Assembly (NCBI RefSeq): GCF_044324785.1
Contig: NZ_CP172127.1
DNA length: 64,000 nucleotides
Direction: 5' to 3' (one strand)
From: Escherichia coli
Lineage (GTDB): Bacteria; Pseudomonadota; Gammaproteobacteria; Enterobacterales; Enterobacteriaceae
A program made the translations under genes and the position numbers. Below, piece by piece: positions 32,690 through 47,078 of the stretch (its first letter is position 1; each line of letters starts with the position of its first letter). The notes under the pieces are model-generated. The model made no database searches and was not told where the DNA came from. It worked only from the letters and a program-made list of their open reading frames with translations.

Positions 32690-32725
32690 TCTTCAGCCCG
32701 ACGAACTGTTTCGCCGGGCTGATTT

Positions 32726-33574
32726 TTAGGGTTCCTGACGTAAATAAATAGCCCGATAACAAATACTCACCAGCACTGCACCGCCGATAATATTACCCAG
32801 CATCACCGGGAGCAGATTGGCAGTAATAAAATGGCTGACCGTCAGTGCCGGAAAATGGTCTGCGCTACTGTGCGCCAGTTGCCAGAAGGTGGTAGGGGCG
32901 AAATGGCGAATGGCAATGGCGAACGGAATCACAAACAAATTGGCGATACAGTGCTCAAAACCACTGGCGACAAACAGGGTGATGGGCAAAATCATGGCGA
33001 CGATTTTGTCGCATAACGAACGTCCGCAATAACTCATCCACAGCGCCAGGCAAACCATCACATTGCACATAATGCCGAGGCTGACTGATTCAGTAAATGT
33101 ATGATGCATTTTGCCCTCGGCGCAGTGTAAAACCGCGACTCCCCACATCGCGTTTTCACTCATCACCAGCCCGGAAAACCAGATTAACAAACTGAAACAG
33201 GCAATACCTGCCAGATTACCGCAGGCCACCAGAAGTGCATTAATCAGCCATGTTCGCCAGCTAATAACGCCCCGACTTTTTGCCATCACCGTCATTACCG
33301 ACGAGGTGAACAGGCTGGTGCCGCAAACCGCCAGCAAAATAAAGCCGAGTGTAAAGCAAAGGCCTCCCACCAGATGGGTTAATGCCTGTGAAGACGGGGC
33401 ATCGGCGATAACGGTAAGGTAAAAAGTAAATCCGATCGCCATAAACACGCCTGCGGACACCGCCATTAAAAAGACCGACACTTTGCTGCGGGCAATTTTA
33501 TGGGCGGCAATCCGTTCAGCGATTGCCGCTTTTCTGGCGCTCAACTGCAAGTCGAAAGAGAGTTTGTTTCTCAT
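32726..33574 (-). CDS. focB: Formate channel FocB, 282 aa
   Basis: FNT-family membrane protein at end of hyf operon. Confidence 0.85.
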   Translation of the reverse strand: MRNKLSFDLQLSARKAAIAERIAAHKIARSKVSVFLMAVSAGVFMAIGFTFYLTVIADAPSSQALTHLVGGLCFTLGFILLAVCGTSLFTSSVMTVMAKSRGVISWRTWLINALLVACGNLAGIACFSLLIWFSGLVMSENAMWGVAVLHCAEGKMHHTFTESVSLGIMCNVMVCLALWMSYCGRSLCDKIVAMILPITLFVASGFEHCIANLFVIPFAIAIRHFAPTTFWQLAHSSADHFPALTVSHFITANLLPVMLGNIIGGAVLVSICYRAIYLRQEP

Positions 33575-33595
33575 GCATACTCCTGCAAAAGCAGA

Positions 33596-35611
33596 TTACA
33601 ACACCTCGCGAACCGAGATCCCCAGACGCTGCATTCGTGACAGCAGCGTGGTGCGCTTCATCCCTAATCGTGTCGCCGCGCCACGGGGCCCGGCAACAAT
33701 GCCATTGGTTTCTCGCAATACCTGAACAATGCGCTGACGTTCTTCTTCGTCATTCTCTGGCGTCGTCGGGTGCAGCAACTGCGCCATTGAACTGCGAAGC
33801 GCTGAATCTTCATTTAGCGTCGGCAGTAAACGGCTTTGTCGGACATTAAGATGTAAATTCAGACTGTTACCGCGAGTCAGTAGTACCGCTCGCTCAATCA
33901 CGTTTTCCAGCTCGCGCACGTTGCCCGGCCAGTCCCACGACATCAACTGGCGTAGCGCCTCGGTCGGGATGGCGTCAATTGCGCGATTCATATGGCGCGC
34001 CATTTTTTGCGTGAAATGCTTTGCTAAAAGAGGGATATCTTCCGGACGGTCGCGTAGCGGGGGCAATTCCAGTGGGAAGACATTCAGGCGATAAAAGAGA
34101 TCGCTGCGAAACTGGCGATCTTCAACCATTTGCCACAAATCACGGTTGGTGGCGGCAATGACTCTGACATTCACCGGGATCGTTCTACTCCCGCCGAGAC
34201 GCTCAATCTCCCGCTCCTGCAATACGCGCAGCAGTTTAGGCTGAAGTTCTAACGGCAGATCGCCAATTTCATCGAGAAACAACGTGCCGCCATCGGCAAT
34301 TTCAAAACGACCACGATGGGTATTAATCGCACCAGTAAACGCCCCTTTGTCATGACCGAATAACTCACTTTCCAGAAGACTGGCGGGGATGGCAGCGCAG
34401 TTGATTTTGACCAGTGGCTTGTCGCGTCGTGGGCTAAGTTGATGGATCGCTCTGGCGATCACCTCTTTGCCGGTTCCGGTTTCACCACAAATCAACACCG
34501 TACTGTCGCTCTTCGCCACAATATCTACCTGCTGGAGTAGGTCTTCCATTGCCTGGCTTTGATAGATAATGTCACCGACGCCCAGATTCGAAAGGAGCTG
34601 CTCGCTAAGCTGGTGGTTTTCTTGCTGCAAACTTTCCTGCAAATCGGTCATGCTGCGCCAGGCATCGGCATTGCCAACGGCAATAGCGATGCGATCGGCA
34701 ATATGTTGTAGTAGCTGGCAGTTTTCCTCACTAAAGAGAGTGGAAGAGGTATGCGCCAGCAACAATGCACCCGGTGTATGGTTGCCAAAGGTGAGCGGTA
34801 TCAGGAGCGCAGATTCGCAGCCGTTAGATGCAAGTAAGTGTAATAACGGGTCGCGTTGCCAGAGAAACAGATCGTCTGCACGGTGCGTCAAGGTCGGTTG
34901 TCGGGTTTGTAGCGTTTGTGTCAGCAATACACTTTCGCCAGGCATACTGCGTGGCAGACATGCACAATCTGAGGCGGAAAAAACGCTGCACCACAGGCTG
35001 AACTTCTCGTTCTTTCGATGATCGCCCAGTACCATACTGACTGAAGCCAGACCGAAAAAATGATGGATCTCACGAGCGACGTCAGCGATCAGATCGTCGA
35101 GATCAAGATGTGACAATACTGCATTAGTGATATCCACCAGTACCCGATGATGATCGCGATCTTTCTCCAGCAAACGCAGCGCCACCTGCTGTTCTTCATC
35201 ATTGAGCCATGATTGCAGAACCGGGGTGATTATCCGCGCCAGCCAGTTAAACAGTGTGCAATCCTGGGGAGTAAAACGGCTGCCGTGAGTGCGAATAAAG
35301 CGTAGCTCCGCCATTCCACTACTGCCGAGAAGGACGGCGTGGCGCGAATAATCGACCATCTCGCCCTGATACTCTGTTGTTGCCGTCACATCGCTGCCAT
35401 CATCATGGTAGCGGTAATAGAAGTTGCTTTTGAGAACATGCAGTTCAATAAGTTGTACCGGGCTGAACGGCGGCGGCAGCGGGATGAAGGCGCGTAATAA
35501 AGACGCCTTGCCGTGTTTCTGCGCTAACCGCTCCGCGAGCATTCCGTTTACCGCTTCAATTGTTATTCCTTGCGGCGGGGCAAACATCGCCTCGTCTGAC
35601 ATAGCCATCAA
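33596..35611 (-). CDS. hyfR: Sigma54-dependent formate-responsive activator HyfR, 671 aa
   Basis: GAFTGA-type AAA+ sigma54 activator motifs ([16 protein letters not shown]); C-terminal HTH. Confidence 0.9.
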
Positions 35612-35637
35612 CAGTCCTTATTAATGAGAAATCCTTC

Positions 35638-36051
35638 TCACGCAATTTTTCTGGCCATCAGATAGATGGCCGGTTCCTGCACAATTTCATCCAACAGATG
35701 AATGAATTGAATGCTACGCGCCTGCCACACAGACGTCGCGTCATCTGCCAGTGGCGCGAATGCCCGGGTCAACAGGGCGGTGTGGCTGGCGTCAATAACA
35801 ATCTCACCAAAGGTCATCACCCCCAGCATCTTACGTCGGGCTTGCTCCTCTTCGACCTGTGCAAGCCAATCATCGTATTCCGTCTGTGGGCAGCGGAAGG
35901 CGACATTCAAACAATCAATCACGCCAACGTGATGACCGATAGCCAACGAGTAATACATTACCTGGGAGCTGTGTTCCGGCATCTCGTCGCTACTGGCGAC
36001 AAACTTTTTTCGCAGCGTCCAGAAAACAATTTCCCCGCACGCCTCAGCCAT
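35638..36051 (-). CDS. hyfJ: Hydrogenase-4 component J, 137 aa
   Basis: Length and operon position. Confidence 0.85.
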
Positions 36052-36802
36052 GTAACCCCCGGAGAACGCGAAAGAGTTGCTGAACGATACTATTGAGACG
36101 TGGATCGTCGGCTTCGCGCAACCAGGTGTTAACCCGATTTCCTGTAGGATCGTCGCTTAAATGGCGCAGGAGCCGATCGCAAATTTCTCGCCCCTGACGA
36201 TAGCCCGCCAGCCGCCTCGCTTCTCGCTCAATGGCGATACGCTGTGATGGCGGGATCTGCGGCCATAGCGGTTGCATGGTCACCCCGGTGGGATCGCGAT
36301 AATCCACAGCGTGAATCTTCTGTTGCAGCAAACCGAGCGCCACGGCGAAACCGTGAATGGTGGCGGCCGGTGTTGGCGGGCAGCCGGGGATCCAAACATC
36401 AATGGGGACAATGGTGTCGCTGCCGCCCCAGACGCTGTAAAGATCGTGGAAAATACCGCCGCCGACACCGCACGCGCCGTAGGAAATACAGATTTTATGA
36501 TCGGGGGCAGACTCATATGCCCGAAGTGCAGGCATACGCATCGCCCGGGTGACTGCGCCAGTAAATAACAAAATATCGGCGTGACGCGGTGATGAAACAA
36601 CCTTAATGCCAAAACGTTCTGCGTCGAATACGGGTGTGATGGCGGCAAAAATTTCGATTTCGCAGGCGTTGCAGCCGCCGCAATCGACGCGATAAACGTA
36701 GGCCGAGCGACGGATATCCTGTAACAAATGCTGCTTCATCTTTTGCGTTTGCTCGTCCAGCGTGATGGGCTGGCTGACATATTGCGTAAGCACTGGACTC
36801 AT
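36044..36802 (-). CDS. hyfI: Hydrogenase-4 small subunit HyfI, 252 aa
   Basis: Fe-S small-subunit Cys pattern; operon position. Confidence 0.85.
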
Positions 36803-37344
36803 AGCTGCTCCTTAGCCACCAGCGGTACATCTGTATCGTCGTTGATCAGCGTCGCGCGTTGTTTGCACTCCGGGCAGACGCTCGCTTGCGCCCATAACAT
36901 TTCGCGGTTTTGTGGCGCATTTTGTTGCTGTGCCAACAATTCAGCAGCCAGTGCGACGGTTTTTTGCGGGGCAAACGGGCGTTCGCAACGGCTGCAACGT
37001 TGTAGATGAAACGTCGCGCGGGTATAGAGATCGGCTTTATTGGTGACGGTCAGTTCAAAGTTATTGGTAAGCTGAATGGCTCTGGTCGGGCACACTTCTT
37101 CACAACGTCCGCAGTAAATACAACGCCCCAGATAGAGCTGCCAGGTGCGCGTATTTTGCTGGTCGTCGGTCTGGATAGTCAGCGCGTTTGCCGGACAAGC
37201 ACAGGCGCAGGCACCGCAGGCAATACATTGGCTGGGCATCAGGTCCGGTTTCCCGCGAAAGCCTGGGCTGACCTCCAGTGGCGCGAAGGGATATTTCACC
37301 GTCGCGGTTCCGGCGCGCATAATAGTTTTCAGTAACTTCAGCAT
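36799..37344 (-). CDS. hyfH: Hydrogenase-4 ferredoxin-type subunit HyfH, 181 aa
   Basis: Two 4Fe-4S Cys clusters. Confidence 0.85.
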
Positions 37345-37353
37345 CTTCTGTCC

Positions 37354-39069
37354 TTACTTCAGCGGCGAACGGTTACGATCAATGCCGTAGCGTTCGATCT
37401 CTTTATACGGCACGGTTTTTGACTGGCGCTTGCGCACATCAACCAGCGTCACACGGTCGGTACAGGAGTAGCAGGGATCAAGGCTACCGATAATTAGCGG
37501 TGCGTCAGAAACGGTATTGCCGCGCAGCATGTAACGCAGCACTGGCCAGTTGGCGTAGGTGGCGGCACGACAGCGCCAGCGGAACAATTTTTGGTTATCA
37601 CCGAGCATGCTCCAGTGCACGTCTTCACCACGTGGCGCTTCAACAAAGCCCAGCGCGAATGCGTGAGGTTTATAGCTAAAGCCTTCGGTCAGCAGTGGGG
37701 TATCTGGCATGTTGTCGAGGGCAAATTCCAGCATTGCCAGCGAATCAAACGTCTCTTTGACACGGACCATCACGCGGGAGAAGACATCGCCGCCGGTAAA
37801 GGTAAACAGCGTTTTTGGAATATTGCCGTAGTCGGCGTAGGGGTGAGCAAAGCGCAAATCACGGGCAAAACCACTGCCGCGGATCAGCGGCCCTACGGGG
37901 CTATAATCACGGGCGATTTGTCGGTCGAGAATGCCAATGCCCTGAGTGCGTTGTTCCATATTCGGCGTGGCAAGCAGCATCTCTACCAGCTCCGACACGT
38001 CGGCGCGCATCTCGCGCACTAGTTTCAGCGTTTGCAGACGTTGCTCTTTGAGAATATCGCGGCGAACACCACCAATCAGATTCAGACCGTAGGTTTTACG
38101 CGACCCGGTCAGCAATTCCGCCATCGTCATCGACTTTTCCCGCACGCGGAAAAATTGCATAAAGCCGGTATCAAAACCAACAAAATGGCAGGAGAGGCCA
38201 AGGTTGAGCAAATGACTATGCAGCCGTTCGACTTCCAGCAGAATCGAGCGAATAGTATGCGCTCGTTGCGGCACTTCAATCCCCAGTGCATTTTCAACCG
38301 AGTTGGTATAGGCCACACTGTGGGCAAAACCGCAAATCCCACACACGCGGTCGGATAAGAAGGTCACTTCGTTGTAGCCCATCCGCGTTTCTGCCAGTTT
38401 CTCCATGCCGCGATGGACATAAAACAGGCGGTAATCAGCATCGACAATTTGCTCGCCATCCACAAACAAGCGGAAGTGACCTGGTTCATCGGAGGTGATA
38501 TGCAGCGGGCCGACAGGGATCACCCGCGCATCGCTGTTGCCCTCGTTGATAAACGGATACGTTTCGGTATCAGTCGTCGGTTCTGGGCGCAGTCGATAAT
38601 CCATCGCGTCTTTGCGCAGCGGATGCATATCTTCCGGCCAGTCATCGGGCAACACCAGCCGACGCTGATCCGGCAGGCCAACCGGAATCAGCCCGTACAT
38701 ATCGCGAATTTCTCGCTCGCCCCAGACCGCGGCAGGGACGCGCGGTGTGACTGACGGAAACTCCCGACTGTCGGCATCGACCAGTGCCTTCACCACGATC
38801 CAGCATTTTTCGGCCCCTTCCATAGAAAGGGCATAATAAACCGCGTAATGACCGTTAAGTGTCCGCTCGTCGTTGCCAAACAGGACTGGAAGCCAGCCAT
38901 CATGTTGATAATAAAGATAATGCACAACGTCAGGCAGCAGATTGATTTTCACCGTAATGGTGACCTGTTCAGGCGTTTGTCGCTCTTCATCCAGCACCGC
39001 GCCGGGGAACTGCGTTTTCAGGGCGGCGAGAATCGCTTCGCCACGATTTGACGATGAATTAACGTTCAC
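37354..39069 (-). CDS. hyfG: Hydrogenase-4 large NiFe subunit HyfG, start probably GTG at 39069
   Basis: ORF 37354..39114; GGAGA RBS before GTG; C-terminal DPCYSCTDR Ni-binding motif. Confidence 0.8.
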
Positions 39070-40639
39070 TGTGTTTCTCCGAAACAGATGCGGTGCCTGA
39101 AGGCAAAAAATCATGCCAGGTGCTACGTTGTGCAGGCAGGTCGTGCGTCCCTGAGAGGACTATAGTGGAAGCGCTTGCCAGGATCCTGATGACAGGTTGT
39201 GGAATATGCGTTCCCATCGCCAGCATCATGACCAGCAGAATCACCATTGGCGAGGTGGTCAACCAGCCAAGTTCACCCCGGTTAACGGCCTGCGGCGGTT
39301 TCGCCATTAACACCCGCGCAGCCATCCGTACCAGGCCCGCCAGCACCAGCGTTAACAGCAATAACAGCAGGACGATAAGCAGCAGATGATTACGCGCCAG
39401 TCCGGCGGTAACGGTCATAAATTCGCTAAGAAAAATGTTGAAGGGCGGCATCCCGGCCAGCGCCAGCGCACCGCCGCCAAACAACACGGCGGTAAATGGC
39501 ATGATTTTGAGCATCCCACAGACGACGTTGAGATCGCGCGTGCCGTACTTGAGCAGTACATTGCCGGAACCGCAGAACAACAGCGTTTTTGCCAGACTGT
39601 GGTTTAAGGTGTGCAGCAGCGCGGCAAAAATTCCCAGCGGCCCGCCAATGCCTAACGCCACCGCGACCAGTCCCATGTTCTCCACGCTGGAGTACGCCAG
39701 CAGACGCTTAATGTCCCGCTGTACCAGAATGAAAAATGCCGCCACGGCAACCGACAACATGCCGAAGATGAGCAACAACCGGTTGGGGAAATCGCTGCCG
39801 ATGGCCTGGCAAATAATGATGTAATAGCGAATAAGCACCAACAGCGCGCAGTTCAGCAATACGGCGGAGAGCAGGGCGCTGACCGGACTCGGCGCTTCAC
39901 TGTGAGCATCTGGCAGCCAGGCATGCATGGGGAATAGCCCGGTTTTAGTGCCAAAGCCAATTAGCACAAACACAAAGGCCAACAGCATTAATGTTGGGTC
40001 AAGCAAGGACGATTGCTTAAGAACCTCGCTCCAGAATATCGCCATTTCTGCCTGCGGCATAACGCTGGCGGCGTTGGCGTATACCAGCACGGTACCGAAC
40101 AGACCAAAAGCGACACCAACAGTACAAATAATGATGTACTTCCATGCAGCTTCCAGCGATGAACGCTGACCGTAAATGCCTACCAGAAACGCCGAGCTTA
40201 AGGTGGTGGCTTCGATTGCCGCCCACATCACAATCAGGTTATTGCTGGTAACAACCAGCAGCATGGTGAACAAAAACAGATGGAAGAAACCGTAGTAATC
40301 GCACAGCGTAACGGGTGAAAGCTCGCCGTGTGCCACTTCATGACGCATGTAGCCAATCGAGTAAACACCGGTGAGAAAGCCAATCACACCAAGAATGGCG
40401 AGGAACAAACCGCCCAGACCATCAATGTGAAGCCACAGTCCCGCAGCGAATATTTCTCCCGCATCAGCGGCAGTTTGGACCACCCACAGTGCCAGAATCA
40501 GCAGCAGTGTGATCCCTAAGCCATGTAGTACTGTCACCGTACGAGTCGCAGAGTGTCCCCGTTTCCGGCAGGCAAAACAGAGCAGCGAAAAAAGCAGCGG
40601 CGTGAGCAGGAGTAAAGCGAACATCACAAAATAACTCAT
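39059..40639 (-). CDS. hyfF: Hydrogenase-4 membrane subunit HyfF, 526 aa
   Basis: NuoN/L-like antiporter-type membrane protein. Confidence 0.85.
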
Positions 40640-40643
40640 CTCA

Positions 40644-41294
40644 TTATCCCTTCAGCGCGGTCAAGTTGTTCACGTCCAGCGTGCCGTGGGTACGCCATAT
40701 TTTTCTTGCCAGTAACACCATCACAATGACGGCGAAGATGGCGTCGGTAGCGATACCAATTTCCACCAGTTCCGGTGCACGCCAGGCTAGAAGCGCCAGC
40801 ACCAGATGGGAGCCGTTTTCCATCAGGCAGTAACCAAAGATTTGCCGCAGGATATTGCGCTGGCTGACAATGCACAGCAGGCCAAGCAGAAAATGACCTA
40901 ACGCCACCGCCAGCGCCGGTTTCAGCCCGGTAGCCATCGGTAGCTTCACGGGCTGAACGACAAATGTGCAAAGCAGGACAATTAACGCCGCGAGCAGTGT
41001 CATCATTGCCGGACCGAATAACGCTTTTTCCGGGATGTTCTGGGGAATATTTCGTGCAGCGTAAGTCATGATTAACGGTACCAGCAGCACTTTGGTGATA
41101 AAGGCGCTGGCGGACCAGATCAGCAGTTGCTCTGCGGCGAATAGGCACGAGAGGGTGGCGAAAATAGACACCAGCACCAGTGACTGGCAGGCGTAAAATC
41201 CGCATGACAGGCGATAGCTTTTGACGCTAATCACAAACAGCGATGTCAGCATCATCAGTCCCGCCAGATTATTTACGATCGTAGAACCGGTCAT
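40644..41294 (-). CDS. hyfE: Hydrogenase-4 membrane subunit HyfE, 216 aa
   Basis: Operon position, hydrophobic. Confidence 0.85.
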
Positions 41295-41305
41295 TCATCA
41301 TCTCC

Positions 41306-42745
41306 TTACTGCAACCAGGTCGCGGCGATTACGCTGGAAATCAGCGACATCACAATCAGTACAATCAACACCAGGCGCATTGATCCTGGCAGCGGTGCGG
41401 CATCGGCGACGGCCTCGCTCGGTTTGCCAGGCACGACGCGACCAAACCAGCGAATAAACCAGGCGAAACTGGCGACCGATTCAATCATCAGCAGAATCAT
41501 GGCGGGCAGCAGGATCCAGTACTCCACTGACAACGCAAAACCGGCAGCAAACAGCGGGAATTTACTGAAGAAGCCGTTGAACGGCGGCACGCCGGTAATT
41601 GCCAGCGCTGCCACGCAGAAACCCACGCCAGGCAACGGCAGGGTGTGCAATACGCCACGCAGACGCGGCAACAAGCGCGTGCCGCAGCTGTAACTCAGCG
41701 CACCTGCTACAAGGAAAAACAGGCTTTTAGCGAACGCGTGGTTGACGATGTAGGCGATGCTACCCTCCAGCGCCAGCCGCGAGCCGAAGATGGAGAGCGA
41801 CAAGCCGAAAAACATCCAGCCAAGTTGAGTGATGGTCGACCAGGCCAGCAACCGCTTCATATCCTGCTGTGGCAAATACATCAGGAAGCCATAAAGAATG
41901 GTGACCAGTGCCATAACCATGCCAACGCCGCCAATCACATGCGGGATATTGCCGCCGTCGATAATGGCACGGGCAAAAATGTAAACGCCCACTTTCACCA
42001 TCGATGCGGCGTGGAGATAGGCGCTGATCGGTGTTGGCGCTTCCATTGCATCCGGTAGCCACGCTTGCATCGGTAGCTGGGCCGATTTCCCCCACGCGGC
42101 AAACAGGATGCCACCATAAACCAGATAGCGTGCGTCGCCGTGTAACTCGCTCATCGCGCTGAGCGCAAACGTTCCGGTCTGCAAAAACAGCGTGGCGGCG
42201 GCAAGATACAACCCCAACGAACCGATATGAGTGATAAGCAACGCTTTTAGTGCTGAACGCTGCGCTTTATCGCTCTGGTAATAACTGATCAACGCCCAGG
42301 AGCAGCCGCCCGTAATTTCAAAAAACAACAACTGACCGAGCAGCGTCGAGGAGAGTACCAGTCCCGCCATCGCGCCGATAAAAACCAGCAAAAATGCGTA
42401 ATAACGATTCGTGCCGTTATGCGGGTGTTCGCGATTTTTATCCGTCAGATAACCCGTGGAGTAGATCGTGACCAGCAAACCGAGGAACACCACCACAAAC
42501 AGAATCAGCGTACTCACGCGATCAATGACCAGGCCAAACAACGCCACATCCCCCACGTTGACCAACGTCAACGTGACGGCAACTTTATCGGCCTGATAAA
42601 ACGCGGAGATCAGCGACAACATGCACAGCGTGGTCAGCGCGGCGAACAAAATCCCCCATTCGGCGGCCCGACGTTGTGGCGAAAACGAAACGACCAGTGC
42701 GCCGATAAAAGGCAGCAATAACGTCGTCAGAGCAAGATTTTCCAT
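41306..42745 (-). CDS. hyfD: Hydrogenase-4 membrane subunit HyfD, 479 aa
   Basis: Antiporter-like membrane subunit. Confidence 0.85.
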   Translation of the reverse strand: MENLALTTLLLPFIGALVVSFSPQRRAAEWGILFAALTTLCMLSLISAFYQADKVAVTLTLVNVGDVALFGLVIDRVSTLILFVVVFLGLLVTIYSTGYLTDKNREHPHNGTNRYYAFLLVFIGAMAGLVLSSTLLGQLLFFEITGGCSWALISYYQSDKAQRSALKALLITHIGSLGLYLAAATLFLQTGTFALSAMSELHGDARYLVYGGILFAAWGKSAQLPMQAWLPDAMEAPTPISAYLHAASMVKVGVYIFARAIIDGGNIPHVIGGVGMVMALVTILYGFLMYLPQQDMKRLLAWSTITQLGWMFFGLSLSIFGSRLALEGSIAYIVNHAFAKSLFFLVAGALSYSCGTRLLPRLRGVLHTLPLPGVGFCVAALAITGVPPFNGFFSKFPLFAAGFALSVEYWILLPAMILLMIESVASFAWFIRWFGRVVPGKPSEAVADAAPLPGSMRLVLIVLIVMSLISSVIAATWLQ

Positions 42746-42761
42746 ATTCCGTCAGTGCTCC

Positions 42762-43709
42762 TTACAGACCGGTTAACCAGAAGACCCAGGCAAGCGCAGC
42801 AAGGCTGAAGCCAAGCCAGGTCACATGGTGAATGAGTAAAAAACGCCCGCGTGCCAGCGTGTTTTCTGCGATTGAGGCCAGAACAAAAATCAGCAAAACC
42901 TTGAGCAGCGTAACGATAAGTGAAGTCAGCAGGCAGGTGAGAGAAAGCTCTTGCGCGCGCCCAAAGGGCAAAAACAGGGCCACAAACAGTGATGCCATCA
43001 CGACCTGTTTCAGCCCCAGCCCCAACTTCGCCAGCGCCAGCCCGGCACCGGAATATTCGGTCAGCGGGCCTTCCTGTAATTCCTGTTCTGCTTCAGCAAC
43101 ATCAAAGGGAATTTTTCCCATCTCAATGAAGCAGGCAAAACCACAGGCCAGTAACGCCAGTACGGTGGTTAGCGGCGAGTTCCAGCCCGTCGCCAGCGTC
43201 TTGCTGATCATCTCGATATGCGTGGAATCCGCTATCAGCGCCAATACCAGCAGTGAGAGAAGGAGCATTGGTTCGACCAGAATGCCGAGCGTCAACTCGC
43301 GACTGGCACCGACTCCCGCAAACGGGCTTCCGGTATCCAGCCCGGAAAGAGCAAAGAAAAAACGAAACAGGGCAAGAAGATAGATAAGGGTGATCAGATC
43401 GCCGCCGCCCGCAAAAGGGGAAACAGTAATAAATAGTGGTAGGGCCATCGCCAGCACCAGCATGCTGCTGATTAATACCCACGGCATCAGGCGGAACATC
43501 AGACCTGAAGATGTCGGCGCAACTTCCTGGCGTTTAAACAGTTTGTGGATATCGCGATAATCCTGCCAGATCCCCGGTCCGCGACGGGAGTGCATACGCG
43601 CGCGTATCTGCCGGGAAATCCCCGTAAAAAGCGGGGTTAGCACCAGCAGAATCACGGCCTGTGCTAACGCAAAAATGATCAGATATCCGTCGCAAAGAGT
43701 TTGTCTCAT
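42762..43709 (-). CDS. hyfC: Hydrogenase-4 membrane subunit HyfC, 315 aa
   Basis: ORF 42762..43730 with start at second ATG (MRQTLCDGYL). Confidence 0.85.
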   Translation of the reverse strand: MRQTLCDGYLIIFALAQAVILLVLTPLFTGISRQIRARMHSRRGPGIWQDYRDIHKLFKRQEVAPTSSGLMFRLMPWVLISSMLVLAMALPLFITVSPFAGGGDLITLIYLLALFRFFFALSGLDTGSPFAGVGASRELTLGILVEPMLLLSLLVLALIADSTHIEMISKTLATGWNSPLTTVLALLACGFACFIEMGKIPFDVAEAEQELQEGPLTEYSGAGLALAKLGLGLKQVVMASLFVALFLPFGRAQELSLTCLLTSLIVTLLKVLLIFVLASIAENTLARGRFLLIHHVTWLGFSLAALAWVFWLTGL

Positions 43710-43719
43710 GGTGATTTCC

Positions 43720-45738
43720 TTAGACGGCAATAGCGATTAGCAGCACAACCAGTGCGGCGATCACATACAGGCAATAGAGACGAAAGTCGCCGCTTTGCAG
43801 ATGCTGTATTTCTTTGGCCAGCCGTTGGGTGGCGCTCACGATGGGGCGGATCACCCGCTCATCCCAGAAGGGTTCTGTGCTCTGAGCCCTGGCGGTGATG
43901 TGCGCAAGACCTTTATTTAGCTTCAGCGTAGGGTCGAGCTGTTGTCGTAGACGAAATAGCGCAGAAAAGACCACACGCAGCGGCTGCATCACGCCATTGC
44001 CTGACGGGGCCATCGCATTATCCCAGCCGTAGCCGCATGCCCAGGCATCTCCTGTGCGACGAAACGCTGCGCGGCGCGAACGACGCCACAGCCAGTAAAG
44101 GCCAGGCAGCAAAGGCATCGCCAGTAGTAACAGCAACAGTAATGAGGGAGTGACCCGTGTATGAAACGTGCCGGGTACAAGTGCTATTCCGCTGGCGACA
44201 GTGACGGGAGGGGTATTGGTAAACGCATGGGCAATGTGCATTATCTTCGGTGCCAGCCAACTGGCACTAAGCGCAATGAATACGCAGAGTGCCGCGAGCA
44301 GTAGCATGGCGACGATCATCGTATTTGGCACTTCCTGTGCCTCTTCAGCGTGTGTACTGCGCGGCGCTCCACAGAAAGTAATACCGTACATTTTGGCGAA
44401 GCACATTACTGCCAGCCCACCAGTGACTGCCAGCATCACCATAGCAATAGGACCCGCAAGTTGTAGCGCTACGGCTTCCACACGACTTAGTGAGAACAGC
44501 GACTGCCAGGTGTACCATTCGCTGATAAAACCATTCAGCGGAGGAATGGCTGATATCGCGAGGCAACCAATCAGGCATGCTGCGGCTGTCCACGGCATCC
44601 GTTTTGCCAGTGCCCCCATTTTTTCCATGTCGTGGGTATGCAAACGCGAAATAATCGCACCCGCGCCGAGAAACAGCAGCCCTTTGAACAGTGCATGGTT
44701 GAGCAAATGAAACAGCGCGCCGAGCAGTCCAACCACGGTGAGCAGCGGGTCGTGCAGTGACAGACCGACCATCGCCACACCGACCGCCAGCAAAATAATG
44801 CCGACGTTTTCGACGGTACTCCAGGCCAGCAGCCGTTTGATATCCTGTTCCGCCAGCGCATACAGCACTCCCAGGAGCGCGGAGATTGCGCCGATCGCCA
44901 TCACCAGAATGCCCCACCACAGCGGCAAACCCGTTTGCGCCAGCAGGTCCATCGCTACTTTCAGGATGCCGAAAATACCGATTTTGACCATTACGCCAGA
45001 CATCAACGCCGAAGCGTGCGATGGTGCGGCAGGGTGAGCGCGTGGCAACCAGCTGTGCAACGGCATCATCCCGGCTTTCGCGCCAAAACCGAAGAAGGCC
45101 AGCAGGAACACCGCCGACGCCAGCCCCGGAGAAAGTGAAAGCGTGCGGAAACTGGCAAAATCGAGGCTGCCGCTTTCGCGCCACATCAGCAAGAAGGCGA
45201 TCATAATCAGCACCGATCCGGCGTGGGCGATAAAAAAGTAGAGCATGCCAGCGTTGATTGACGTTTTATCCTGCCTGGCAATGACCAGAAACCAGGAAGA
45301 CAGCGACATCATTTCAAACAGCACGATGAACCAAAAAGCGTTATCCATCACCAGCAGGGCAACCATCGATGCGATGAAAAGATTCATAAAGAAGCCCATT
45401 GCCGCCGCGCCTTTGCCCTCGTATTCGCGCATATAAGTCAATGAATAGAGCGAACAAACCCCCACCAGCAAGGAGATAACCAACACCATAAATGCCGAGA
45501 GGCTATCCATTCGCAGGGTTAAATCGGCAAAATCAAAAGGCGTGGCAAAACGGGCGACTAAAGTTACGCCTGCATGTAATTGCGTAATTCCGCTGATGAT
45601 GCCAATCACGCCGCCCACCAGCGATGTGATGCCGGAAAGCTTAATAGTCAGTCTGTCCAGACCGAGTAAAAACAGCGAAGCCAGACTGGCAAACAGATAG
45701 AGGATCAGCGACCAGGTTAATAATTGCAGGGCATCCAT
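43720..45738 (-). CDS. hyfB: Hydrogenase-4 membrane subunit HyfB, 672 aa
   Basis: Antiporter-like membrane subunit. Confidence 0.85.
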   Translation of the reverse strand: MDALQLLTWSLILYLFASLASLFLLGLDRLTIKLSGITSLVGGVIGIISGITQLHAGVTLVARFATPFDFADLTLRMDSLSAFMVLVISLLVGVCSLYSLTYMREYEGKGAAAMGFFMNLFIASMVALLVMDNAFWFIVLFEMMSLSSWFLVIARQDKTSINAGMLYFFIAHAGSVLIMIAFLLMWRESGSLDFASFRTLSLSPGLASAVFLLAFFGFGAKAGMMPLHSWLPRAHPAAPSHASALMSGVMVKIGIFGILKVAMDLLAQTGLPLWWGILVMAIGAISALLGVLYALAEQDIKRLLAWSTVENVGIILLAVGVAMVGLSLHDPLLTVVGLLGALFHLLNHALFKGLLFLGAGAIISRLHTHDMEKMGALAKRMPWTAAACLIGCLAISAIPPLNGFISEWYTWQSLFSLSRVEAVALQLAGPIAMVMLAVTGGLAVMCFAKMYGITFCGAPRSTHAEEAQEVPNTMIVAMLLLAALCVFIALSASWLAPKIMHIAHAFTNTPPVTVASGIALVPGTFHTRVTPSLLLLLLLAMPLLPGLYWLWRRSRRAAFRRTGDAWACGYGWDNAMAPSGNGVMQPLRVVFSALFRLRQQLDPTLKLNKGLAHITARAQSTEPFWDERVIRPIVSATQRLAKEIQHLQSGDFRLYCLYVIAALVVLLIAIAV

Positions 45739-46355
45739 TAGCGTTGCTCCTGAGTGAGGGAAAGGGGATCCTCCCCGCCATTGGCAAACCAGCTTGCGGC
45801 AAGGCGCTGTTTTTCTTTCATCTGGCGTTGCAGGCTATCGTCGGTGATCAGCCGTAACGCCTTATTCGGGCAAGCGCGAACGCATGCCGGACCTTCTGGC
45901 AAGAAATCACACAGGTCGCATTTCACCGCGACGGTCTGGACACCCGGTTCCCAGCGCAGCAACGCATGTTGGGTCGACACGTTTACTTCTCCGTCTTTGA
46001 GTGAGCCCTCAGCCTGAAAAACATATTGCGCAGGGGCATTCACCGGACGGCTTCCTGAAGCGCTGATTGCGCCAAATGGGCAGACCACGGCACAAAGCTT
46101 GCAGCCAATACAGAGGCTTTCGTTGAGTTGGATCGCATCATCCCTCTGGGAGATGGCATTGACCGGGCAGACCTGCAGGCAAGGGGCTTCCTCACAGTGA
46201 TGACACACGACAGGGGCAGTGAGTGTTGACGTCTTCGCCAGGGCCAGGCGCGGGTGTTGCTGTAAACCTTGCGTTTTATGCACGTCCGAACAGGCAGCGA
46301 GACAGGTATTACATCCTGTACACCACAGTGGTTCGGCCACCACAAAGCGGTTCAT
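45738..46355 (-). CDS. hyfA: Hydrogenase-4 Fe-S subunit HyfA, 205 aa
   Basis: ORF 45738..46394 with start MNRFVVAEPLWCTGC; four Cys clusters. Confidence 0.85.
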   Translation of the reverse strand: MNRFVVAEPLWCTGCNTCLAACSDVHKTQGLQQHPRLALAKTSTLTAPVVCHHCEEAPCLQVCPVNAISQRDDAIQLNESLCIGCKLCAVVCPFGAISASGSRPVNAPAQYVFQAEGSLKDGEVNVSTQHALLRWEPGVQTVAVKCDLCDFLPEGPACVRACPNKALRLITDDSLQRQMKEKQRLAASWFANGGEDPLSLTQEQR

Positions 46356-46395
46356 GTCGGCTCCTTGAAAATGATATGAAACATTGCATTTCATA

Positions 46396-46414
46396 TTGCA
46401 TAAAGGATGCCAGT
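46396..46414 (-). promoter_or_regulatory. Candidate sigma54 promoter of the hyf operon (minus strand TGGCAT-N-TATGCA with GG and GC 10 nt apart)
   Basis: ctGGcatcctttatGCaat about 40 bp upstream of hyfA start. Confidence 0.5.
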
Positions 46415-46607
46415 CTGATTAATTTAATATATTCAATAAGTTATGAATTAACTGTATTCTGAACGGTACAAAAATGATGGTCATTAACGTTCAGCAAAAA
46501 ATGAATTCGACACCCGTGTCGCAGGGGAAAGCGAGAATGTGATCTTGATCACGAGAAGTGAGGTGTGCTGACCGCAAGCGCAGCCAGCACGGAATGGAGC
46601 AAAGTAA

Positions 46608-47078
46608 TCAGGCGTGTTCTTTCAGCCAGTTCAGCACAACGTCGTGGTGATTGCTGGTTTTGAAATCGTCAAAGACATGTTCGATTTTGCCATCAGCGTC
46701 AATCAGGAAGCTGATGCGATGAATACCATCGTAGGTTTTGCCCATGAAGGACTTTTCACCCCAGACGCCGAATTGTTCGCACACCTGGTGGTCCTCATCA
46801 GACAGGAGCGTAAAGTTAAGCAGCTCTTTTTCCGCAAAACGGGAGAGTTTTTCGGGTTTATCGGTGCTGATACCCAGCACATCAACGCCCGCTTTTTTCA
46901 ACTCATCCATGTTATCGCGTAAGCCGCAGGCTTGTACGGTACAGCCGGGGGTCATGGCTTTCGGGTAGAAATAAACCAGAACACGCTGTCCCTGGAAGTC
47001 GGTCAAATTAACTTGTTCTCCGTCTTGATCCGGCAAGCTAAATTTCGGTGCGATATCACCGGCTTTCAGTGGATTCAT
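46608..47078 (-). CDS. bcp: Thiol peroxidase Bcp (peroxiredoxin), 156 aa
   Basis: PGCT active-site motif; synteny. Confidence 0.9.
   Translation of the reverse strand: MNPLKAGDIAPKFSLPDQDGEQVNLTDFQGQRVLVYFYPKAMTPGCTVQACGLRDNMDELKKAGVDVLGISTDKPEKLSRFAEKELLNFTLLSDEDHQVCEQFGVWGEKSFMGKTYDGIHRISFLIDADGKIEHVFDDFKTSNHHDVVLNWLKEHA

What the first reader, a model, noticed from the sequence alone, without database searches (positions are those of the whole stretch)
46396..46530. hyf operon control region: sigma54 promoter and perfect palindromes that may be activator sites
About 40 bp upstream of hyfA the minus strand carries a -24/-12 type element with GG and GC spaced 10 nt apart. Further upstream lie the palindrome CGACACCCGTGTCG (46509-46522) and the inverted pair ctgaacg / cgttcag with a 21-bp spacer (46459-46493). 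These are the right distance for an enhancer-binding protein such as HyfR or FhlA.
Basis: partly seen in the sequence, partly recalled or inferred. Interest (0 to 1): 0.25.

Follow-up and report, generated by a model that had tools for sequence, protein, structure and literature searches.

The report
Known hyfA sigma-54 promoter and enhancer
This is the already characterised control region of the E. coli hydrogenase-4 (hyf) operon: the promoter call is right, one of the two palindromes is a deeply conserved activator site, and the other is not a conserved unit.

Summary
The window is E. coli. The interval lies in the bcp-hyfA spacer on the minus strand. All three sequence features exist, with one-base coordinate slips. 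None exceeds chance on sequence statistics alone.

The -24/-12 element TGGCATCCTTTATGCA (46412..46397) is the known hyfA sigma-54 promoter. It is bound in ChIP-seq and in genomic SELEX, and is listed as experimentally confirmed. The inferred start is 46386, 31 nt before the ATG.

The palindrome CGACAC-N2-GTGTCG (46508-46521, centre -128.5) is the core of a motif, CGWCA-N4-TGHCG. That motif occurs upstream of sigma-54 hyf promoters in 28 of 31 loci from other genera. It also occurs in the E. coli fdhF and hydN upstream regions. It is very probably the HyfR/FhlA enhancer.

The ctgaacg/cgttcag pair is not conserved as a pair. The right arm is at background identity (0.29). Its spacer holds an invariant 15-mer, TGACCATCAYTTTTG (centre -90), with no assigned factor.

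Verdict: ordinary and already known. The unassigned 15-mer is the only open point.

The parts
46565..46590 (-). bcp terminator-type hairpin (GTGCTGGCTGC / GCGGTCAGCAC). It marks the upstream limit of the hyf control region.
   Evidence: -20.2 kcal/mol, z = -4.1. inverted repeat I3. The bcp CDS 46608..47078 is identified.
46538..46553 (.). CRP site, TGTGATCTTGATCACG on the + strand (CGTGATCAAGATCACA in hyf orientation). Centre -159.5.
   Evidence: Only exact TGTGA-N6-TCACR in the window. The identical 16-mer is listed as a CRP ChIP-seq site for hyfA in ETEC H10407 (PMC4287617). hyfA is listed among known cAMP-CRP targets recovered by genomic SELEX (PMC3105977). Half-sites are 0.83 conserved against 0.54 for the spacer.
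46508..46521 (.). Enhancer (UAS) core, CGACA-CGGG-TGTCG in hyf orientation. Centre -128.5. Proposed HyfR/FhlA binding site.
   Evidence: Only CGWCA-N4-TGHCG match in the window. The same motif lies at -260..-60 in 28 of 31 sigma-54 hyf-like loci, 5.3 per kb against 0.055 per kb elsewhere. It sits at -126 to -128 in Citrobacter, Kosakonia and Atlantibacter. Arms are 0.90 conserved, spacer 0.33. The motif is also in K-12 fdhF and hydN.
46488..46494 (-). It is partly conserved as the 5' flank GAACGTTAA of the 15-mer.
   Evidence: identity 0.63. GAACG is present in 7 of 10 lineages.
46469..46483 (-). Invariant 15-mer TGACCATCAYTTTTG, centre about -90. No factor assigned. Best guess is a secondary, degenerate activator half-site.
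   Evidence: identity 0.93 across nine other lineages. No other close copy in the window. It overlaps the -35 of a proposed sigma-70 promoter, ATGACC-17-CAGAAT (PMC3946193).
46459..46465 (-). Not conserved.
   Evidence: identity 0.29, which is background. Retained only in the Salmonella-labelled locus.
46431..46443 (+). IHF-like site ATTCAATAAGTTA (1 mismatch to WATCAANNNNTTR), centre -51. Proposed DNA bend between enhancer and promoter.
   Evidence: a site with up to 1 mismatch on this strand in the -80..-35 zone, mostly at about -50/-51 or -61 to -63, in 24 of 32 loci; 21 per kb against 0.8 per kb elsewhere. Specified positions are 0.86 conserved.
46397..46412 (-). Sigma-54 -24/-12 promoter element TGGCATCCTTTATGCA.
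   Evidence: ChIP-seq motif ATGGCATCCTTTATGCA upstream of hyfA, EcoCyc status confirmed. Highest RpoN SELEX peak. Core identity 1.00. A -24/-12 element is present upstream of the hyfA homologue in about 30 other loci.
46386..46386 (-). Inferred transcription start, 31 nt upstream of the ATG.
   Evidence: Inferred as 12 nt downstream of the -12 C and 19 nt downstream of the motif centre, the rule used in PMC4591121. That paper's table gives distance 31 for hyfA.
46374..46396 (.). Perfect 8-bp inverted repeat ATATGAAA-N7-TTTCATAT spanning about -10 to +13. Specific to E. coli. Function unknown.
   Evidence: inverted repeat I4. P about 0.11. Not conserved in other genera.
45738..46366 (-). Shine-Dalgarno AAGGAG (46366..46361) and the hyfA coding sequence (ATG at 46355; CDS 45738..46355).
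   Evidence: annotated hyfA. The SD-to-ATG segment is 0.93 conserved.
33596..35611 (-). hyfR, the operon's own sigma-54 enhancer-binding protein, encoded in cis.
   Evidence: best family is the FhlA model, below its cut-off, as expected for a paralogue; 51% identical to K-12 FhlA, with a near-identical C-terminal helix-turn-helix.

Best explanation
The interval is the enhancer-dependent sigma-54 promoter of the hydrogenase-4 operon hyfABCDEFGHIJR-focB.

RNA polymerase with sigma-54 sits as a closed complex on TGGCAT-N5-ATGCA (46412..46397). It starts transcription near 46386.

The formate-regulon activators HyfR and FhlA share an almost identical DNA-recognition helix. They bind the inverted repeat CGACA-N4-TGTCG at -128.5 (46508-46521). 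An IHF-type bend at -51 (46431-46443) brings them to the polymerase. ATP hydrolysis then opens the promoter.

cAMP-CRP bound at -159.5 (46538-46553) assists activation.

A further invariant 15-mer at -90 (46469-46483) belongs to the architecture. Most likely it is a secondary, degenerate activator contact.

Shown here: the elements, their positions and their conservation.

Shown in papers read here: sigma-54 and CRP occupancy.

Inferred: which protein touches the palindrome and the 15-mer, IHF binding, and the exact start site.
For: Identity of the locus.

Sigma-54 element: for the sequence, ChIP-seq, SELEX and EcoCyc status. for conservation.

Enhancer palindrome: the motif CGWCA-N4-TGHCG is present in 28 of 31 loci, enriched about 96-fold in the -260..-60 zone. 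The window has a single hit, at the palindrome. Its position is the same (-126 to -128) in Citrobacter, Kosakonia and Atlantibacter. The arms are conserved (0.90) and the spacer is free (0.33). The same motif is in the FhlA-dependent fdhF region at -104.5 and the hydN region at -94.5. In Pectobacterium and Dickeya extra copies sit next to divergent sigma-54 elements.

Activators: the helix-turn-helix of HyfR and FhlA is 30/38 identical.

CRP.

IHF-like site.

Within E. coli, all 11 intergenic SNPs among six strains fall between the named elements. In a hyf-less strain the remnant palindrome has decayed to CAACACTCGTTTCA.
Against: No direct binding data for HyfR or FhlA at this exact sequence could be read. 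The two primary hyf regulation papers are not held.

The published FhlA weight matrix scores the palindrome only 5.6 bits, rank 447 in the window.

The 16-mer literature consensus CATTTCGTACGAAATG does not hit the palindrome. It also scores at most 9/16 on the two known FhlA regions tested, hyc-hyp and fdhF.

The motif was defined after looking at the sequences, so its enrichment is partly post hoc.

The hyc-hyp spacer lacks the inverted form. It has the direct repeat CGACA-TCAT-CGACA instead.

The 15-mer matches no motif tested. Its resemblance to the hydN flank is not significant (P about 0.1).
Confidence: 0.8

Rival explanations
1. Both the palindrome and the ctgaacg-N22-cgttcag pair are symmetric binding sites for a dimeric or oligomeric enhancer-binding protein.
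For: Both arms are intact in all six E. coli strains compared. They are partly kept in one Salmonella-labelled locus, as GAACG...CGTTCA. The pair is centred at -90.5, a plausible activator distance. Folded as RNA, the pair has z = -2.5.
Against: The right arm is at background identity (0.29) across nine lineages, while the spacer core is 0.93. A 7-bp inverted repeat with a spacer of up to 30 bp occurs in 35% of shuffles. The arms do not resemble the CGWCA/TGWCG half-sites.
Confidence: 0.1
2. The conserved 15-mer is the -35 region of a sigma-70 promoter, ATGACC-17-CAGAAT. That promoter would give low constitutive hyf transcription independent of sigma-54.
For: RpoD holoenzyme genomic SELEX lists a peak in the bcp>hyfA spacer with exactly this proposed promoter (PMC3946193). 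Citrobacter species carry TTGACC there.
Against: The -10 hexamer is not conserved: CTCACA, TTCGCA, CTCCTG and TTCGTT in the other lineages. Ten bases of the would-be spacer are invariant, which is unusual for a sigma-70 promoter. The consensus scan finds no sigma-70-type promoter at 46300-46700.
Confidence: 0.08
3. The CGACAC/GTGTCG palindrome is an RNA hairpin that terminates bcp transcription, not a protein-binding site.
For: The pattern scan flags it as terminator-like on the minus strand: stem CGACA/TGTCG, then AATTCATTTT.
Against: The hairpin is only -4.9 kcal/mol with z = 0.02. A strong hairpin (-20.2 kcal/mol, z = -4.1) lies directly after the bcp stop codon. In the other lineages the right arm is TGCCG, which breaks pairing, yet the element is conserved. 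The same motif recurs at hyf promoters that have no upstream bcp.
Confidence: 0.03
4. The palindromes are chance features of an AT-rich spacer and only the -24/-12 element is functional.
For: Neither repeat is improbable on its own in shuffles.
Against: Cross-genus conservation of the arms, with a free spacer, at a fixed distance from the promoter. A chance hit of the motif within a 200-bp zone is expected about 0.002 times. That figure is my own estimate from the pattern's information content.
Confidence: 0.03

Closest known systems
E. coli hyfA promoter as described in the literature: sigma-54 dependent, activated by FhlA and HyfR, and requiring cAMP-CRP (Skibinski et al. 2002 and Self et al. 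2004, J Bacteriol). Both papers are cited from my own knowledge because they are not held in the library.
   Same: It is the same locus. The window's spacer differs from K-12 at a handful of positions between the named elements. The sigma-54 motif and the 31-nt distance match the published ChIP-seq table.
   Different: Nothing differs in kind. I could not check whether those papers already mark the CGACAC/GTGTCG palindrome, the 15-mer or the IHF site. The 13-site FhlA matrix in PMC7658346 cannot contain the hyf palindrome in its register: C is absent at matrix position 1.
FhlA upstream activating sequences of the formate regulon (fdhF, hydN-hypF, hyc/hyp).
   Same: The inverted core CGWCA-N4-TGWCG occurs about 95-130 bp upstream of a sigma-54 start. 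Examples are fdhF aCGTCAaaacTGACGa (-104.5), hydN tCGTCActagTGTCGa (-94.5) and hyf gCGACAcgggTGTCGa (-128.5). An IHF-type site lies between enhancer and promoter.
   Different: hyf has a G+C-rich spacer (CGGG) and a single full site, not the arrays of half-sites seen at hydN and hyc/hyp. hyf adds a CRP site upstream and an unassigned 15-mer at -90. The hyc/hyp spacer uses a direct-repeat arrangement.
hyf (formate hydrogenlyase-2) promoters of other Enterobacterales, for example Proteus mirabilis (FhlA- and RpoN-dependent, PMC7658346) and Pectobacterium atrosepticum (HyfR-dependent, PMC7384014).
   Same: The layout of sigma-54 element, IHF-like site and CGWCA-N4-TGHCG enhancer is shared.
   Different: The enhancer distance varies by clade: -83 to -96 in Providencia and Morganella, about -120 in Dickeya and Sodalis, -127 in the bcp-hyfA clade. 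The CRP site and the 15-mer are confined to the bcp-hyfA clade.

Membership tests
Sigma-54 (-24/-12) promoter | GG and GC doublets 10 nt apart within TGGCAC-N5-TTGCW | tested here: met
   TGGCATCCTTTATGCA at 46412..46397, 1 mismatch to TGGCAY-N5-TTGCW.
Sigma-54 (-24/-12) promoter | Occupancy by sigma-54 holoenzyme | not testable with these tools
   Published data: ChIP-seq peak OS23 with this motif, EcoCyc status 'C'. Highest RpoN genomic-SELEX peak.
Sigma-54 (-24/-12) promoter | Conserved at the orthologous position upstream of the first gene | tested here: met
   Core identity 1.00 in nine lineages. A -24/-12 element lies upstream of hyfA homologues in about 30 loci.
Sigma-54 (-24/-12) promoter | Mapped transcription start about 12 nt downstream of the GC | not testable with these tools
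   The start at 46386 is inferred. From my own memory, the Skibinski 2002 abstract reports a start 30 bases upstream of hyfA. That paper is not held.
FhlA/HyfR enhancer (UAS) | Inverted CGWCA-N4-TGWCG core as in the fdhF and hydN upstream regions | tested here: met
   CGACACGGGTGTCG at 46521..46508. It is the sole hit in the window. The same core is in fdhF and hydN.
FhlA/HyfR enhancer (UAS) | Located roughly 80-160 bp upstream of a sigma-54 start and conserved among orthologous promoters | tested here: met
   Centre -128.5. Present in 28 of 31 loci, with about 96-fold local enrichment. Arms 0.90 against spacer 0.33.
FhlA/HyfR enhancer (UAS) | Match to the published FhlA weight matrix (PMC7658346, Table 2) | tested here: inconclusive
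   5.6 bits, rank 447 in the window. The known fdhF site scores only 8.6 bits. The matrix does not discriminate.
FhlA/HyfR enhancer (UAS) | Match to the consensus CATTTCGTACGAAATG (Leonhartsberger 2000, quoted in PMC4987338) | tested here: inconclusive
   The best matches in the hyf spacer are 10/16 and none is at the palindrome. The known hyc/hyp and fdhF regions reach only 9/16. The window holds 104 sites with at least 10/16.
FhlA/HyfR enhancer (UAS) | Direct binding by the activator and loss of activation on mutation | not testable with these tools
   Indirect only: the HyfR and FhlA helix-turn-helix is 30/38 identical. From my own memory, the Skibinski 2002 abstract says purified HyfR binds the hyf promoter region.
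CRP site | TGTGA-N6-TCACA with conserved half-sites | tested here: met
   TGTGATCTTGATCACG at 46538-46553, 9/10. Half-sites 0.83 against spacer 0.54. ChIP-seq in ETEC reports the same 16-mer.
IHF site | WATCAANNNNTTR between enhancer and promoter | tested here: met
   ATTCAATAAGTTA, 1 mismatch, centre -51. A comparable site lies in the -80..-35 zone, mostly at about -50/-51 or -61 to -63, in 24 of 32 loci, enriched 26-fold. Binding itself was not tested.
Intrinsic terminator (rival for the palindrome) | Stable G+C-rich hairpin followed directly by a U tract, with pairing maintained in relatives | tested here: not met
   -4.9 kcal/mol, z = 0.02. Pairing is broken in the other lineages, which carry TGCCG.
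   The pattern is the opposite: right arm 0.29, left arm 0.63, spacer core 0.93.

The most novel reading that the evidence does not exclude
The invariant 15-mer TGACCATCAYTTTTG at -90 is as conserved as the enhancer and the promoter core, yet it matches no motif I could test. It may be the operator of a factor not yet linked to hyf. Alternatively it may be the determinant that makes this promoter respond about 1000-fold to HyfR but only weakly to FhlA. Either way it could help explain why E. coli hydrogenase-4 is 'silent' under laboratory conditions.
Probability: 0.2. Interest if true: 0.45.

Novelty: already known. Interest (0 to 1): 0.15.

Why it matters
The hyf operon encodes hydrogenase-4 of formate hydrogenlyase-2. 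This enzyme is of long-standing interest because it resembles respiratory complex I and because the E. coli version is barely expressed.

The promoter, its dependence on sigma-54, FhlA, HyfR and CRP, and the occupancy by sigma-54 and CRP are all published. The finding therefore adds little.

What this check adds is a base-level map of the control region from cross-genus footprinting. The map places the activator site at -128.5 and an IHF-type site at -51. That 15-mer is a cheap target for mutagenesis if someone wants to understand or unlock hyf expression.

Tried and rejected
Primary papers. Skibinski 2002 and Self 2004 are not held. Searches for HyfR with UAS or with ChIP-exo found nothing.

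Published FhlA matrix and consensus. The FhlA weight matrix does not separate the palindrome, or even the fdhF site, from background. The literature consensus CATTTCGTACGAAATG is not discriminating either, including on known FhlA regions.

Terminator reading of the palindrome. Rejected on energy and on lack of compensatory conservation.

Known RNA families. None at 46250-46750.

Sigma-70 promoters. The consensus scan finds none. The SELEX-proposed ATGACC-17-CAGAAT has no conserved -10.

Identity of the 15-mer. By eye I compared it with IHF (3 mismatches), FNR (8/10 in some lineages but lacking the critical G), Fur (14/19 in E. coli only), ModE, ArcA, NarL, Cra and other LacI-type operators, IscR, NikR, CusR, sigma-E and sigma-54. 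None fits across lineages. These comparisons rest on consensus sequences recalled from memory.

Other tests of the 15-mer. Its similarity to the hydN flank ATGACATCGTTTTT is not significant (P about 0.1). A small + strand ORF starting in the block (22 codons) is not conserved in frame in Citrobacter or Kosakonia (read).

The genome-collection scan returned no Escherichia loci. Closer relatives were fetched through protein look-ups instead. Even E. fergusonii HyfA is only 70% identical, so no intermediate-distance comparison was available.

Full report
**Locus.** The 361 bases around the finding are 100% identical to E. coli strain N3. They match 5424 of 5426 complete E. coli genomes. The annotated features under the match are hyfA (hydrogenase 4 subunit HyfA) and bcp. 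On the minus strand the order is: bcp (46608..47078), a 252-bp spacer, hyfA (ATG at 46355, CDS 45738..46355), then the rest of the hyf operon down to hyfR (33596..35611) and focB.

**Observation.** All three features are present.
- The minus strand reads TGGCATCCTTTATGCA at 46412..46397, with GG and GC separated by 10 nt.
- The palindrome is CGACAC-CC-GTGTCG at 46508-46521. This is one base lower than stated. It has 6-bp arms around a non-symmetric dinucleotide.
- The inverted pair is CTGAACG (46459-46465) and CGTTCAG (46488-46494), with a 22-bp spacer.

Sequence statistics alone do not lift any of them above chance.
- The sigma-54 pattern with one mismatch gives 10 hits in 64 kb against 7.9 expected.
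- Palindromes of the first type occur in 27% of dinucleotide-preserving shuffles of the spacer.
- Inverted repeats of the second type occur in 35% of those shuffles.

**The promoter.** Published sigma-54 ChIP-seq lists ATGGCATCCTTTATGCA upstream of hyfA. It gives a predicted start 31 bp before the gene and the flag for an experimentally confirmed EcoCyc promoter (PMC4591121). In RpoN holoenzyme genomic SELEX the bcp>hyfA spacer is the highest peak (PMC8743547). Applying the same rule to the window puts the start at 46386, 31 nt before the ATG. A -24/-12 element lies upstream of the hyfA homologue in about 30 loci from other genera. Its core is invariant in nine other lineages that share the bcp-hyfA arrangement. 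From memory, the abstract of Skibinski et al. 2002 reports a primer-extension start 30 bases upstream of hyfA. That paper is not in the held library.

**The first palindrome.** I collected 45 loci encoding HyfA relatives and six more through protein look-ups. Anchored on the sigma-54 element, their upstream regions share a motif, TCGWCA-N4-TGNCGA.

Written as CGWCA-N4-TGHCG, the motif behaves as follows.
- It occurs between -260 and -60 in 28 of 31 loci, at 5.3 per kb against 0.055 per kb in the rest of those loci.
- In Citrobacter, Kosakonia and Atlantibacter its centre is at -126 to -128.
- In a ten-lineage alignment of the bcp-hyfA spacer the arms are 0.90 identical to E. coli, while the 4-bp spacer is 0.33. 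Conserved arms with a free spacer are the signature of a protein-binding site.
- The same core is present in two E. coli K-12 FhlA-dependent promoter regions: fdhF (aCGTCAaaacTGACGa, centre -104.5) and hydN (tCGTCActagTGTCGa, about -94.5).
- In Pectobacterium and Dickeya extra copies lie beside divergent sigma-54 elements.

HyfR from the window and K-12 FhlA are 51% identical overall. They are 30/38 identical across the C-terminal helix-turn-helix, with the same recognition helix. One site could therefore serve both activators, in line with the published genetics.

I conclude that the palindrome is very probably the HyfR/FhlA enhancer core. Four caveats apply.
- The motif was defined after inspection of the sequences.
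- The published 14-column FhlA matrix gives the palindrome only 5.6 bits, rank 447 in the window, and the known fdhF site only 8.6 bits.
- The textbook consensus CATTTCGTACGAAATG reaches no more than 9/16 on the two known FhlA regions tested, hyc-hyp and fdhF. It does not hit the palindrome.
- The hyc/hyp spacer carries a direct-repeat form instead (CGACA-TCAT-CGACA).

**A terminator reading of the palindrome.** The pattern scan raised this. It fails for three reasons. The hairpin is -4.9 kcal/mol with z = 0. A strong hairpin (-20.2 kcal/mol, z = -4.1) follows the bcp stop codon directly. The other lineages carry TGCCG in the right arm, which breaks pairing while the element stays conserved.

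**The second inverted pair.**
- The right arm CGTTCAG has 0.29 identity across the nine other lineages, which is background.
- The left arm has 0.63.
- The middle of the spacer holds a 15-mer, TGACCATCAYTTTTG (46483..46469, centre about -90), with 0.93 identity.

The conserved unit is therefore the 15-mer, plus a partly conserved GAACGTTAA flank. It is not the inverted repeat.

I could not assign the 15-mer. It does not match the enhancer motif. It has three mismatches to the IHF consensus. It fits FNR and Fur only in some lineages. Its likeness to the hydN flank ATGACATCGTTTTT is not significant (P about 0.1). RpoD genomic SELEX proposed a sigma-70 promoter, ATGACC-17-CAGAAT, here (PMC3946193). 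However, the -10 is not conserved, and ten bases of the would-be spacer are invariant.

My best guess is a secondary, degenerate activator contact, with TGACC resembling the TGWCG half-site. By analogy, a canonical TCGACA half-site sits at a similar position in Atlantibacter. This is inference only.

- TGTGATCTTGATCACG at 46538-46553 (centre -159.5) is the only exact TGTGA-N6-TCACR in the window. The same 16-mer is reported as a CRP ChIP-seq site for hyfA in ETEC (PMC4287617). hyfA is among the known cAMP-CRP targets recovered by SELEX (PMC3105977). From memory, Self et al. 2004 showed that optimal HyfR-dependent expression needs cAMP-CRP.
- ATTCAATAAGTTA on the + strand at 46431-46443 (centre -51) is one mismatch from the IHF consensus. 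A comparable site lies in the -80..-35 zone, mostly at about -50/-51 or -61 to -63, in 24 of 32 loci. This is a 26-fold local enrichment.

**Variation within E. coli.** Among six E. coli strains, all 11 intergenic SNPs fall between the named elements. About 1127 of 5424 genomes lack hyf. In one such strain a decayed remnant of the control region survives next to bcp. Half of its CRP site is deleted and its palindrome is mutated to CAACACTCGTTTCA. This fits a function tied to the operon, though it is a single lineage.

**Model.** The architecture is rigid: CRP (-159.5), enhancer (-128.5), 15-mer (-90), IHF-type bend (-51), then the sigma-54 -24/-12 element. It is a textbook enhancer-dependent sigma-54 promoter.

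**Verdict.** The system is already known. Interest is low. The unassigned 15-mer is the only open point.

Noticed in passing
window 32690-46554; locus L054 557-654: About 1127 of 5424 complete E. coli genomes lack the whole hyf operon. In strain FCI1, yfgO abuts bcp and a diverged remnant of the hyf control region persists. Half of its CRP site is deleted and the enhancer palindrome has decayed to CAACACTCGTTTCA. The junction falls at GCTGAA(G), a sequence found both at 46494..46489 and just downstream of focB (about 32700).
   Followed up: partly
window 46374-46401: A perfect 8-bp inverted repeat, ATATGAAA-N7-TTTCATAT, spans about -10 to +13 of the hyfA promoter. A direct repeat ATTGCAT x2 (46383-46389, 46395-46401) overlaps the -12 element. 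Both are specific to E. coli. They could be an operator over the start site of this poorly expressed operon, or chance (P about 0.11).
   Followed up: no
window 46469-46483: The 15-mer TGACCATCAYTTTTG is 93% conserved across nine other bcp-hyfA lineages and matches no regulator motif I could test.
   Followed up: partly
window 35169-35184, 36327-36342, 36596-36611 (minus strand): There are one-mismatch sigma-54-like matches inside hyfR and hyfI, upstream of or within the hyfR-focB part of the operon. The window-wide count equals the chance expectation (10 against 7.9). The ChIP-seq paper's text mentions only the hyfA site.
   Followed up: no
loci L055-L058 and protein list: E. fergusonii HyfA is only 70% identical to E. 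coli HyfA. That is no closer than Citrobacter, or than sequences labelled Salmonella or Klebsiella, and nothing lies between 96% and 71% identity. This is odd for sister species. It suggests an old polymorphism or horizontal replacement of the hyf cluster.
   Followed up: no
window 46565-46590: The bcp terminator hairpin shows paired differences between strains: GGTCAGCAC against GGCCAGCAT. It lacks a clear U tract in E. coli, whereas Citrobacter has a canonical terminator with a T run.
   Followed up: no
window 46356-46394: The mechanical ORF list extends hyfA 13 codons upstream to an ATG at 46394. That ATG lies upstream of the inferred transcription start. The annotated start (46355) has the conserved Shine-Dalgarno sequence, so the extension is an artefact.
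   Followed up: yes
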